The position numbers were made by a program, and so were the translations under genes. DNA of 64,000 nt from Eledone cirrhosa (Eukaryota). The notes beneath the pieces are model-generated. The model was not told the DNA's origin and made no database searches. It worked only from the letters and a program-made list of their open reading frames with translations. This document shows positions 441-51,157 of this stretch, piece after piece. The stretch spans positions 230,516,001 to 230,580,000 of the forward strand of contig OZ024741.1 of assembly GCA_964016885.1 (NCBI GenBank), read 5' to 3'. How positions within the stretch are numbered: position 1 is the stretch's first letter; every line of letters starts with the position of its first letter.

Positions 441-2290
441 TTGAGGATAATGATGCTACATTCACCATGCTCTCCACAATGAAGAGAACAAGCTGAATGA
501 TCAGTGGTTTTTGCCGAGGGCCCAGTAAGGACCACTATTGAGAGAGCCTCCAAAGGGTCAAATTCAAAACTGAAATGTAAAACAGGAAATATGAAGAATA
601 ACTGCTGGTCTGATATTTCAGCAGAGATGCAGAGTGCTTATAACTGCAGAGACGTGAAAGCATTATACAGTACAATAAGGCACGTTTTGGTCCACAGCCC
701 TCAACCATCGCACTATTGCAATCAAAAGATGGGAACGTCCTCATTAAGGATACAGCAGGAACCATAAATCGGTAGACAAACACTTTAAAAGGTCTTTTAG
801 ACAACCCATCTATAGTTGAGGACGAAATCATCAATGGATGGCTGCAAAAGGACACTGTAACGGAGATGATGAATTATCCAACCATTGATGAGATAAGGTC
901 TACTATCAAAGAGATAAACATAGGGAAAGGACCAAGTTTGGATGGAATACCTATTGAGCTGATCTACTTTGGAGGAGACAATGTTTGTATGGCCTTTCGT
1001 GGGCTAGTCTTATCTCTATGTACCACAAGAGTGGGTAGATATAATTTTGCATCTGATTTACAAAGGCAAGGTCACCAAGACCGAATAAGGTGATTATCGT
1101 GGTAAAAATCTGCTCGAGTCTGTAGGAAATGTCTTATTCCAGATCAAGCTGAATTGTCTGACAAAATGCATCTGCCCTAGTGTCATCCCTGAGACCTAGT
1201 GTGTATTTAGAGCTGGGTAGGTTACTATGTACATGATTTTCTCAGCCCGTCAGCTTATGGAGAAATATGTTGAGCATCACGTGCCAATATAACAAGTATT
1301 TCTTGACGTTACCAAAGTCTTCGGTACTGTTATTCGTAGTGCATTCTGGTTCATATTAGGAAAACATGAATGTATTTTGGGAGATATTCAAAATATTCCG
1401 TCAAAATATGAAAGCAAAAGTGAACTTCAATGGGACCCAGAGCCTGTTACTGTGGAAACCGACGTCAAGCAATGTGACATATCTGCATCTTCTCATTTCG
1501 CTATCTACTTTTCCCTGCTGCTGGCATATGTCTTCCAATAGTTCGAAATCGGTGTATACTTGCGAATTAAAACCGCTGGCAATGTATTTAATCTAAGATG
1601 GTTTAACACATTTGGCACTCCTGTTAGTAAAGTCTTGTATGATGATGCTGCAGATTTTGTGGCACACACGGTAGAGTATATGCAATTGATATGTGGACAA
1701 CTTCTCTAACGTATACACTGTTTAGGGAATACATTTTAGTATAAAAAAGAAAAAAGTCATGCACAACCCAACAGTTGGTGAAGTGTACGTGGAGTCAGAC
1801 ATTTTCGTGAGAGGATCAAACATCAGGTGGTGAACAGTTTTGTGTATCTTGGAAGTGCACTTAGTAGAGCTAGTACTCTTGATGTTGAAATAGATCACAG
1901 GATTGCGAAATCGAGTAGTGCCTTAGGGAAGCTTAAGAGGTGAGCTTGGTCAAATTAGGGTATCACAGGTAACACAAAAGTCTCTGTGTACGGGGTCTGT
2001 GCTAGTACAGTCCTGTTCTACGGATACGAAACGTGGACAACTTACAGGCATCACCTCAGTCAGATGGAAATATTTCATCAGCATTGTATCCGAAGTATCC
2101 TGAACATGAAGTTACAGACCAGATGCTGCTGTACTTGAGAAGGAAGGCAGCACCAGTTTTGGGAGGAGTGATATTATGAACCAGATGAGTTGGGAACGTC
2201 ATGTGATCAGAATGGAAGAGAGAAGGCTGCCTAAACAGTTATTTTATTGGGACCCGACCAGATGAAAAACCACAGCATAAACCAGAATAC
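440..2290 (+). mobile_element. Degenerate RTE-clade LINE, RT region (many stops and frameshifts)
   Basis: Fragments KGPSLDGIPIELIYFGG, DYRGKNLLESVG, LYDDAADFVAH, FVYLGSAL, LFYGYETWTTYRHHL parallel the better preserved RTE at 5689-8686. Confidence 0.85.
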
Positions 2291-3555
2291 AGGGACATAG
2301 AGCACCTCTTCTTGAAACATAAGCAGGGTGGCATTGGCCTAACATCTGTTCAGACAGTATTTGAGTGTCGCAATATATCCCTCCGACAATATCTACGAAC
2401 CTCCGAGCGTAGGTGCCTATCTATTGAACAAGTATGTCTGCATGAAACAGATAAGACCATGAGAGTTGAGAAAAAAAAATATACTTCCTGCATGGTAATC
2501 AGAAACTCACACCCTAGGAAATTGCCCAGCAATACCGCAGTGAATTCATGGAGGGAAAACTGTATGCTTATCATGCATGGGTATTTTGCCATGGATATGT
2601 TGCCTGATAAGCAAAGTAGTCTATCTTGGACCAGCAACCACTATATTGGCTGTCACTTTGAAGGATACGATTTCACAATCCAAGAACAGGAAACCAATAC
2701 GAAATAACTGATTCACAAAAGAGATGGAATGCACGCAAAACACTTAGATGTAACAACAAAATGTTGACACTGCAGAATTAACATCTAAGATGTCAACCAT
2801 GTCATAAGCAGCTGTTCAGAGATGTAATCAGGGTAGTATCTACCTATGAGGCATGATGAAGTGGCCAAACAACTATACAATACAATCTATATTAAAAGTT
2901 ACAGCAGTGTGGATGACATATACATACATAATATGAAAGAGTGCTTGTGGAATGTTCCAGTCAAACGCCTCCCAAAATGTAAGAATAATAGACCAGACTT
3001 AATGATATGGGACAGGGAAAAGAAGGCATGCGCAGTAGCGGAAGTAAGCTGCCAAGCAGATGCCAATATAATATTAAAGATTAACGAAAAGGAGAATATT
3101 TATGCAGAACTAATGAGAAGTCTGCAGATACTCAACCCTGACTATACCTTCAGATTTATGCCTGTGATTATTGGGCCACTGGGATATGTTAGTAACTGCC
3201 TCAATACAAATCTTGAGAAGCTAGGCTTCACAGGAACAGAAAGAACACAACAAGTTAGGAAATTACAAGTACAATCCATTAATGGAACAGTAAAAATATG
3301 TAAAACATTCCCAAACTTCTGCATCTAATAACTGCATATACACATGTACAGATACAAACCATATGCACATGCACACATACAGCTCGAGACATATACATAC
3401 ACACATACAATAACATCCATACTTGCACACACATGCATGCATGCAGACATACATACATATCTACCTAGTTGATGTTGTGTAAATTCCAATGAGAGAGTCT
3501 TGTGTCTATGTTAGAAACCGACTCTCTCTCTCTATTGGCAAAAATTTGTGAAATT
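2290..3555 (+). mobile_element. 5'-truncated R4/Dong-like non-LTR retrotransposon (CCHC + restriction-like endonuclease), degenerate
   Basis: KQGGIGL thumb motif, FTIQEQE, a decayed CxxC-H-C knuckle, MRHDEVAK, NRPDLMIWD..AEVSC, K...Y, PVIIGPLG (ORF 2846-3328). Confidence 0.8.
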
Positions 3556-49454: not shown

Positions 49455-51157
49455 ACAACACATAAAAAAGATCAATACTAGAAGGTTAAACGAAAACACT
49501 AAGAACTTAAGTACAAAGAACCCCCAAAAAACAGTAGACAATACACTACAGAACATAAATAAACCACACCTAAGTTCGTCCGCAATACTACTCCAGAGAA
49601 AACCCAACGTACACAACTGTAACTGCACCTATCCTGACAACTGCCCCCTCGGCAATAACTGCCTGGAAAAAAATATTATTTATAAGTGTACCATTAAATC
49701 CGGAGGCAACGAGTGGTATTACGTGGGATCAACGGCAACATCGTTTAAATCTCGATTGTATAGGCATTCTTACTCAATAAAACACCAGAGCCAAAGAAAT
49801 GTAACAACTTTAGCAGAAAAAGCTTGGACGCTCAGGGATAGCAATCAAAAGTTTACCCTAAAATGGGAAAAATTAGCTAAAACCCAAAGCTTTTCCAGGA
49901 GCCAAAATTTCTGCAAATTGTGTAATCTTGAGATTTATTACATAATCACACACAAGAAGAAACTGCTGAATAACAGAATTGAACGAACATTATTCTGCCG
50001 TCACAGAACTAAAACCGTTTTTTTCCCACTACAAGCAGAATATTACATAAAAGAGGGACATCCCCCAACTATATAAACCTTAATCTAGTTAGAAAAATAT
50101 AAAAACAATCTCTTCTCAACATATATTAATAACCTTAAATTACCATACTAATAATGAAAAGATATGCTGATGAGAATAGGTACAAATATGCGATAATGAA
50201 TGTGTCTAAAAACGTCCATAAGTATGTATATATATGTGAAAATGTATATAAATAAGTAAATATATATATATGTTTGATGTGTATAGTTAGATGTAAGTGT
50301 ATTCATGTATTAAAGTGCTTATATATATATATATATATGTGTGTATATGTATATATGTGTATATATGTATATGTATGTATATATATATATATATATGTAT
50401 ATATATATATGTGTATGTATGTATGTATATATATATGTGTATGTATGTATGTGTATATGGATGTGTATGTATGTGTATGTGTGTACACATGGACTAGAGT
50501 ATGTATGTATATATGTGTGTGTCTATACGTGTGTATATATAAAGATAAGTAGAGTATGAAAATGTATACACATGAGCGCGTATGTATGTACATGAATACA
50601 TGTGTGTATATATATGTGTATGCATGTGTATATATATGTAAGTATGAATATGTGAATTGTGAGTATATGTATTTTGTAGAGGTGTGCAAATATATTTGTG
50701 TGTGAATGCGTGGGTGAAAGAATACGTACACTTGAAAGAAAAATTTAAGTCTGAATGTTAAGTGCAAACACAAAACTAACCACGCATATCTTTACTATCT
50801 CTAATCCTTCTATAGATTTAGAAAAATAACCAATAATATATTCTATAAAAAATGTCAAAACAACAGATGGGAATCTAATTACTCACTGCCACCAAGAATT
50901 CTCACTGCTATCGAAAAACCACTCCTTCAACTATTCTTCTAACAACTTCACCCCTCCCTCCTAATATTCTCTATAAAAACTAAATAGGTCCTCAGTAATA
51001 TTATTCTGATGAAATGACAGTAAATAATAACATTGAAATATTGAATGTCTGCATAACTAAAAGTTTGTAGATAGCTGTTTTATGTTATGTAACTGTTATA
51101 GAAACACGTGTCAATAAATTCCTTTCAACTAAACTGTATCCATTCAAATCTTTCTAT
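49455..51157. repeat. Inverted repeat, right arm (1703 bp)
   Basis: Differs from the left arm by about 4 substitutions, a 1-bp insertion near 50017-50024 and a 6-bp (AT) contraction. Confidence 0.95.
51001..51117 (+). ncRNA. Type I hammerhead ribozyme motif with enlarged stem II
   Basis: ttatt-CTGATGA-a-atgacagt-[70 nt]-actgttat-a-GAAA-cacgtg-TC-aataa. Stem I is ttatt/aataa, stem II is atgacagt/actgttat, stem III is palindromic acacgtgt. Predicted cleavage after C51112. The first stem II pair is an A.A mismatch. Confidence 0.7.

What the first reader, a model, noticed from the sequence alone, without database searches (positions are those of the whole stretch)
1455..51157. 23.3-kb tandem duplication whose breakpoint sits at the loop end of a Penelope-made 1.7-kb inverted repeat
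Seen: the duplication ends at 48060 (junction 24763/24764, blunt, no clear microhomology), only 33 bp inside the inner end (48093) of the left arm of the PLE inverted repeat. At diagnostic sites the copy-1 PLE fragment matches the left arm and not the right arm. The two arms differ more from each other than the duplicated copies do, so the inversion came first. Known: long near-perfect inverted repeats form hairpins or cruciforms that are cut near the loop by Mre11/SbcCD-type nucleases. Inference: an inverted PLE insertion made a fragile site whose repair duplicated 23 kb upstream, meaning PLE inverted pLTRs could drive segmental duplication. A mis-assembly provoked by the palindrome is the main alternative.
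Basis: partly seen in the sequence, partly recalled or inferred. Interest (0 to 1): 0.75.

Follow-up and report, generated by a model that had tools for sequence, protein, structure and literature searches.

The report
Tandem duplication ending inside Penelope insertion
A 23-kb stretch of transposon debris was copied head-to-tail, likely by a DNA-replication accident long after a common jumping gene had inserted back-to-back beside it, and although one end of the copy lies near that mirror-image insertion's inner end, the insertion was probably a bystander rather than a fragile hairpin.

Summary
Window 1455-24763 and 24764-48060 form a blunt-joined direct duplication (11 substitutions, about 7 events), ending 33 bp inside the left arm of a 1.7-kb inverted repeat. 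Short-read contigs of one sample (possibly the assembled one) are 2.2-2.6 times deeper inside the unit than just upstream, and one starts exactly at 1455, so mis-assembly is unlikely; no junction-bridging contig was listed. The inverted repeat is an ordinary head-to-head insertion of a Hydra-clade Penelope-like element into (TA)n; its 1.36-kb 'loop' is the element's own reverse-transcriptase region. About a quarter of sampled family loci (46 of 178) have this form. Arm divergence dates the insertion about nine times older than the duplication. The proposed cause is weak: in yeast, Mre11/Sae2 cuts only at spacers up to 8 bp and wide inverted repeats give inverted duplications; 0 of 45 other inverted loci, and 0 of 13 read with flanks (many better hairpins), carry such a duplication. 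Best reading: a replication-restart duplication closed by end joining, with the repeat a bystander (0.55); repeat-assisted break 0.3. The scan noted this insertion architecture before on other DNA.

The parts
1455..24763 (+). Duplication copy 1 (23,309 bp): transposon relics plus the outer 1675 bp of the Penelope-like element
24764..48060 (+). Duplication copy 2 (23,297 bp), continuous with the complete insertion
24763..24764 (.). Blunt duplication junction, 0 bp microhomology, no insert
   Evidence: found once in the genome among 40 scored matches; X4 contig begins exactly at the right side of it
1454..1455 (.). Upstream breakpoint, inside an old LINE-like relic (label from sequence resemblance, not tested by profile); contig depth steps from 7-9.6 to 17-21 here
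23089..24763 (-). Truncated copy of the left arm (3' UTR and endonuclease region), identical to 46386-48060, same (TA)13 junction
46363..46388 (.). (TA)13 target microsatellite at the canonical 3' end of the element
46386..49451 (-). 5'-truncated Hydra-type Penelope-like element, open frame of 650 aa (RT with YRDD, CxCx5C linker, GIY-YIG-type endonuclease); its 3' 1.7 kb is the left arm
   Evidence: no Pfam match at E<=0.001
48094..49454 (-). Spacer of the inverted repeat = RT-coding part of the element (1.36 kb)
48060..48061 (.). Downstream breakpoint, 33 bp inside the inner end of the left arm
49452..51157 (+). Right arm: inverted 5'-truncated copy (inverted pLTR)
51158..51272 (+). 115-nt one-sided tail (start of the next tandem unit), ending in the (TA)32 run at 51268-51332
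51006..51050 (+). Hammerhead-like core (CUGAUGA, 4-bp stem II, GAAA) in the 3' UTR; stems I and III not verified
   Evidence: no Rfam hammerhead match at E<=1
19996..20155 (.). Tract in the copy-1 Helitron relic identical to another Helitron 1.9 Mb away (L052, 93% identical overall); holds 5 of the 11 differences between the copies; likely ectopic gene conversion
   Evidence: PIF1 match in this relic

Best explanation
This is a 23.3-kb head-to-tail duplication with a blunt junction, likely real and likely made by a replication accident (re-copying after fork restart, sealed by end joining) long after an ordinary back-to-back Penelope-like insertion, which was probably a bystander. Step 1 (structure shown, mechanism inferred): a Hydra-type element cut a (TA)n run; both target strands primed reverse transcription on the same tandem or circular RNA at two start sites 115 nt apart, and the two cDNAs were joined at their truncated ends, giving identical head-to-head arms. 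Step 2 (order shown by the shared junction and by divergence): the insertion stayed intact for most of its life. Step 3 (inferred): one fork or broken end stopped at 48060 while the segment back to 1455 was copied twice; the two ends were ligated without homology. Step 4 (inferred): a short conversion tract and a few point changes accumulated; copy number may now vary (depth ratio above 2).
For: Blunt junction, no homology between breakpoints (longest shared word 6 bp in 120 bp). Depth 21.1/8.0, 16.7/7.5, 19.7/7.4 inside/upstream in three runs; X4 contig starts at 1455; both alleles of the 1762/25071 difference occur (T in X3, C in X4 and X5). Inverted form is routine: 46 of 178 loci; in 9 of 9 inverted loci with both ends in view one arm ends at the canonical 3' end and the other carries the 115-nt tail. 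No similar duplication at 45 other inverted loci (8-500 kb; the window is recovered as positive control) or within about 30 kb of 13 loci with spacers of 76-1112 bp. Kilobase tandem duplications unrelated to the element occur in 4 of those 13 regions. Non-homologous ~10-kb duplications by restart/bypass and end joining are described (PMC13672311, passages).
Against: The break lies 33 bp from an inner end, which is 2.7% of positions in the element, and on the 5' side of the loop on the + strand; a rough hand estimate gives only about 0.05 such coincidences for this family per genome (one young background duplication per 0.9 Mb, a single observation). 0 of 45 only bounds the rate at about 6%, so it cannot exclude an enrichment over background. 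No contig bridging the junction was listed, and the summed depth at 24782 in X4 leaves no room for one. Nothing in the sequence shows fork restart directly.
Confidence: 0.55

Rival explanations
1. The inverted repeat caused the break: in a long single-stranded gap the arms annealed into a 1.7-kb stem with a 1.36-kb loop, a stem-loop junction nuclease (XPF-ERCC1/Rad1-Rad10 type, which cuts duplex on the 5' side of a loop; recalled) cut near 48090, about 30 nt were trimmed, and the end was joined to a re-copied upstream end.
For: 33-bp distance and side of the break; insertion is older than the duplication; in yeast 1.5-kb-spaced repeats stay above background and anneal well in long ssDNA, with Rad1-Rad10 involved (PMC10164571, abstract and passages); barrier-proximal breakpoints are typical of fork-stall duplications (PMC13672311, passages).
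Against: 0 of 45 and 0 of 13 sister loci, many with shorter spacers and 99.9% arms; in yeast the outcome was an inverted duplication in 12 of 12 clones; a hairpin would stall a fork at the stem base (46386), not near the loop (inference); MRX/Sae2 needs spacers up to 8 bp (PMC8053094).
Confidence: 0.3
2. Assembly artefact: two haplotypes or a chimeric read placed in tandem, provoked by the repeat.
For: No junction-bridging contig listed; runs may be the assembly's own sample and contig depth is not a calibrated copy number (tool's caution); an assembly gap lies inside another inverted locus, L025.
Against: False duplication predicts a depth ratio near 1; found 2.2-2.6 in 3 of 3 runs; contig start exactly at 1455 in X4; no gap at the junction; short links between high- and low-depth contigs are also missing elsewhere (1237-1424 absent in X4), so a missing 60-bp junction contig says little.
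Confidence: 0.08
3. Duplication coupled to retrotransposition: the fold-back formed in the single-stranded integration intermediate, or a read-through RNA of element plus 21.6 kb flank was copied back in cis.
For: During integration the cDNAs are single-stranded over kilobases (inference); Penelope enzymes can move host DNA with introns (PMC3846280, passages).
Against: Insertion is about nine times older than the duplication, unless the tandem copies were homogenised; differences are spread along the unit; no tail, no (TA)n and no element end at 1455; no 5'-truncation hot spot near this position among fetched copies.
Confidence: 0.07

Closest known systems
Hydra clade of C-terminal endonuclease Penelope-like elements (Craig et al. 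2021, PMC8557442, passages read)
   Same: RWK and DKT motifs, CxCx5C linker, CxxC and CxH around the conserved E and N, (TA)n targets
   Different: Unit is 3.6 kb (described members generally under 3 kb); at least 850 exact copies of one 28-mer; hammerhead only partly verified
Inverted pLTR with one-sided tail (Pen2a_Av, PMC3846280; scheme in PMC8557442; two internal RT start sites in PMC11167929)
   Same: Head-to-head 5'-truncated inverted copy; tail on one arm only; tail bounded by two fixed end points
   Different: Tail is 110-118 nt rather than 30-40 nt; arms up to 3.6 kb; both end points match (TA)n by a few bases, whereas the anole element starts without homology
Non-homologous 'Group 1' tandem duplications at a Tus/Ter fork barrier (PMC13672311, passages read)
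   Same: Direct head-to-tail copy in the 10-kb class, no homology between breakpoints, one breakpoint possibly at a barrier
   Different: Described in BRCA1-defective mouse cells and tumours; here a single 23-kb event in an animal genome assembly with no demonstrated barrier
Inverted-repeat fragility in yeast (PMC8053094, PMC10164571, passages read)
   Same: Long near-identical inverted arms with a break close to the centre
   Different: Spacer 1.36 kb, far above the 8-bp limit for MRX/Sae2; product is a direct duplication with the repeat left intact, not an inverted duplication with terminal deletion

Membership tests
Hydra-clade Penelope-like element | RT followed by C-terminal GIY-YIG endonuclease in one ORF | tested here: met
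   650-aa open frame with YRDD then IY.C...YVG; motif scan only, Pfam gave no hit
Hydra-clade Penelope-like element | RWK motif and DKG changed to DKT | tested here: met
   Present in the longer sister copy L019; the window copy is truncated just after DKT
Hydra-clade Penelope-like element | CxCx5C linker; CxxC and CxH around conserved E and N | tested here: met
   CNCTYPDNC at 508, CKLC at 606, CRH at 634
Hydra-clade Penelope-like element | Insertion into (TA)n | tested here: met
   Every terminal end in view is followed by (AT)n
Hydra-clade Penelope-like element | Canonical hammerhead ribozyme in the pLTR | tested here: inconclusive
   Core boxes with 4-bp stem II found; stems I and III not verified; Rfam no match
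Hydra-clade Penelope-like element | Placement in the Hydra clade on an RT tree | not tested
   No reference proteins fetched
Inverted-pLTR insertion | 5'-truncated inverted copy adjacent to the 5' end, head-to-head, tail on one end | tested here: met
   all 46 inverted loci start antisense and end sense
Non-homologous tandem duplication | Head-to-tail copies with no homology between the two breakpoints | tested here: met
Non-homologous tandem duplication | Extra copy physically present (depth, junction reads) | tested here: inconclusive
   Depth ratio 2.2-2.6 and fork at 1455 support it; no bridging record listed
Fork-barrier (restart/bypass) duplication | One breakpoint at a site that stalls forks | not testable with these tools
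   Needs replication mapping or a reporter
Mre11/SbcCD hairpin-cleavage rearrangement | Spacer short enough for a stable hairpin (up to 8 bp in yeast) | tested here: not met
   Spacer 1355 bp; threshold from PMC8053094
Mre11/SbcCD hairpin-cleavage rearrangement | Inverted duplication or loss of the repeat as product | tested here: not met
   Direct duplication, repeat intact in copy 2; products from PMC10164571
Recurrent fragile-site class | Same rearrangement recurs at sister loci | tested here: not met
   0 of 45 and 0 of 13 (5 loci overlap, 53 in all)

The most novel reading that the evidence does not exclude
Head-to-head Penelope-like insertions, of which this genome holds well over a hundred from one family, are weak fragile sites: when exposed as single-stranded DNA their arms anneal across a kilobase loop, are cut at the stem-loop junction, and seed direct tandem duplications of tens of kilobases of flanking DNA, an outcome not seen in the yeast inverted-repeat systems read here.
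Probability: 0.25. Interest if true: 0.6.

Novelty: new member of a known kind. Interest (0 to 1): 0.25.

Why it matters
As it stands it is one young duplication of non-genic transposon debris next to a published type of insertion, so it matters little. It does give a dated sequence of events (insertion, duplication, conversion) and an upper bound of about 6% on how often young inverted insertions of this family carry such a duplication. If breakpoints proved enriched at inner arm ends, a very common retroelement footprint would become a source of segmental duplication, and widely spaced inverted repeats would have a new repair outcome.

Tried and rejected
Two same-strand pairs of the element 19.8 and 42.8 kb apart on C1 were checked as possible duplications; both are independent insertions with unrelated flanks. 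A DNA search with the right-arm end and tail found nothing (common words are skipped, so uninformative). Rfam gave only low-complexity microRNA matches far below their thresholds. No stable local hairpin at either breakpoint (about -4 kcal/mol per 100 nt, no shuffle control). The TTT|AA at 48060 resembles a LINE endonuclease site (recalled) but is common in AT-rich DNA; rejected. A contig at half depth with a skip at 24796-24897 aligns by only 22 bases on one side and was treated as a paralogous LINE copy. Literature searches for Penelope-like with twin priming, tandem duplication with stalled fork, inverted repeat and hairpin, and Penelope with segmental duplication and breakpoints listed no paper whose title or abstract start reports inverted pLTRs causing tandem duplications; only listings were seen and the library lacks most subscription papers.
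Full report
Observation. Self-comparison of the window shows a direct repeat of 1455-24763 with 24764-48060 and an inverted repeat of 46386-48096 with 49452-51157. Alignment gives 11 substitutions and two microsatellite length changes between the duplicated copies, a blunt junction with no microhomology on either side, and true arm identity up to 48093/49455, so the duplication stops 33 bp inside the left arm. 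The copy-1 fragment 23089-24763 is identical to the left arm, shares its (TA)13 junction, and matches it at 5 of 5 sites where the arms differ. No N lies in the window or in 18 kb upstream and 10 kb downstream. The junction occurs once among the 40 scored genome matches. The unit holds only transposon relics among ORFs of 150 aa or more that I examined: of 7 proteins scanned, two match RVT_1 (one also GIY-YIG), one matches PIF1 and four match nothing.

Is it real? Three runs of one sample hold the stretch; they may be the assembly's own sample and are contigs, whose depth the tool says is not a copy number. Using only the listed long contigs without other letters (or with the one known difference), length-weighted depth inside the unit against the 1.1 kb just upstream is 21.1/8.0, 16.7/7.5 and 19.7/7.4, ratios 2.64, 2.22 and 2.65 (short contigs of paralogues were left out). 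A false duplication of two haplotypes predicts about 1. In X4 one contig begins exactly at 1455 (=24764), as expected if two different sequences precede it; in X3 and X5 the contig begins 90 bp further in. Both alleles of the 1762/25071 difference appear (T in X3; C in X4, X5). Against: no record bridging the junction was listed, and summed depth at 24782 in X4 (24.8 = 17 + 7.8) leaves no room for one; but short links are also missing where they must exist (1237-1424 absent in X4). I put reality at about 0.9. The ratio above 2 may mean a third copy on one homologue or a hemizygous region; this cannot be resolved here.

What the inverted repeat is. The left arm and the 'loop' are one 5'-truncated element on the minus strand with a 650-aa open frame; the right arm is an inverted copy of its 3' part. 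Motifs (RWK and DKT in sister copy L019; CxCx5C, CxxC, CxH) and (TA)n targets match the description of the Hydra clade (PMC8557442, passages); no tree was built. One 28-mer has 850 exact genome matches. In three subfamily-specific pattern lists (100 of 103, 39 of 39 and 100 of 124 matches shown), 46 of 178 loci are inverted, all head-to-head. In 9 of 9 inverted loci with both ends in view, one arm ends at the canonical 3' end and the other runs 115 nt into the next unit before (TA)n; the tenth, L028, is cut by the fetched stretch. Inverted copies with a one-sided tail are published (PMC8557442; PMC3846280, passages), and an anole element extends both target strands from two internal RNA start sites that bound the tail (PMC11167929, parts 1-2 of 4 read). 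I infer priming from both strands on one tandem or circular RNA; both arms share three alleles absent or rare in 27 other copies, which fits one template.

Order of events. Young sister loci have arms 99.9-100% identical (L014, L017, L023, L030, L043, L048; range over all listed loci 97.6-100%), so arms start alike and their divergence is a clock. The window's arms differ by about 4 substitution events in 1711 bp. Five of the 11 differences between duplicated copies fall in a 160-bp tract where copy 1 is identical to a Helitron 1.9 Mb away that is otherwise 93% identical, likely one conversion (a polishing error is not excluded), leaving 6 in 23,297 bp. The insertion is thus about nine times older (p=0.003; counting 5 against 11, p=0.003). 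Homogenisation of tandem copies could shrink this gap.

Did the repeat cause it? In yeast, MRX/Sae2 cuts and forks stall only at spacers up to 8 bp unless RPA is depleted (PMC8053094, passages). Spacers of 1.5 kb lower rearrangement rates 31-fold relative to 12 bp but stay above background, anneal well in long single-stranded DNA with Rad1-Rad10, and gave inverted duplications in 12 of 12 clones (PMC10164571, abstract and passages). The window's spacer is 1355 bp and the product is direct. Empirically, a duplication like this one leaves a further same-strand match of the subfamily pattern 8-500 kb away: the window shows it at 23,297 bp, 0 of 45 other inverted loci do (two lie on small contigs), nor do 131 other non-inverted loci. 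This test misses breaks outside the pattern, so I also read 70 kb around 13 inverted loci chosen mostly for short spacers (76-1112 bp): none has a duplication ending in or at the element, while 4 of 13 regions hold unrelated kilobase tandem duplications, the nearest 3.4 kb from an arm (two regions contain a 200-N gap). The 95% upper bound is about 6% of loci. This excludes a common effect but not a weak one. Given a break inside the 4.9-kb element, 2.7% of positions are as close to an inner end. By hand, about 165 inverted loci and one young duplication per 0.9 Mb (a single observation) give about 1.6 breaks somewhere in such elements and about 0.05 this close for this family; other families and post-hoc choice of feature raise that. 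The proximity is therefore suggestive, not decisive.

Mechanism. A blunt, non-homologous, head-to-tail 23-kb copy fits re-replication after fork restart completed by end joining, the model described for Tus/Ter-induced duplications (PMC13672311, passages); this step is inferred. I give 0.55 to this with the repeat as bystander, 0.3 to a repeat-assisted break at the stem-loop junction by a junction nuclease rather than Mre11, 0.08 to artefact and 0.07 to a retrotransposition-coupled origin.

Novelty. Both components belong to known kinds. Searches (listings only) showed no report of inverted pLTRs seeding tandem duplications, but one locus cannot establish it. No supplements were read; the Hydra alignments in the supplement of PMC8557442 could sharpen the clade call. 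Earlier notes of this scan describe the same head-to-head and tail architecture on other DNA; I had reached that reading before looking (note), and none of the 16 notes shown reports a direct duplication at such a site.

Noticed in passing
window 51158-51272; L014-L017, L020, L021, L023, L030: Fixed asymmetry of inverted insertions: one arm ends at the canonical 3' end, the other always carries a 110-118 nt tail; both end points have a few bases of TA homology to the target, and the tail is three times longer than published tails.
   Followed up: yes
window 19996-20155 and L052 (G000:C2:232.42 Mb): Likely ectopic gene-conversion tract between Helitron relics 1.9 Mb apart, present in only one duplicate copy.
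   Followed up: partly
window 1455-48060: Contig depth is 2.2-2.6 times the upstream flank, above the 2 expected; a collapsed third copy or copy-number difference between homologues is possible.
   Followed up: partly
   Followed up: partly
L115-L117 (G000:C1:57.086-57.104 Mb): Three-copy tandem array of a 6.06-kb unit, 97.5% identical, starting 3.4 kb from an inverted insertion and apparently older than it.
   Followed up: no
L107 (G000:C2:366.337-366.341 Mb): 2.09-kb tandem duplication, 99.5% identical, about 2.5 kb from an assembly gap.
   Followed up: no
L025 near 820: Assembly gap inside a complex inverted insertion of this family, suggesting such loci can break assemblies.
   Followed up: no
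L046-L047, L041, L042, L044: Complex insertions with three to five tandem and inverted pieces, some with short re-started fragments at the turning point.
   Followed up: no
window 11869-14236 (-) and 35176-37543 (-): A second, different Penelope-like element with RVT_1 and GIY-YIG matches lies inside the duplicated unit, next to (TC)n(TA)n.
   Followed up: no
window 1919-2284 and 4160-4534: Old inverted pair of LINE-like fragments, 75% identical, repeated in copy 2.
   Followed up: no
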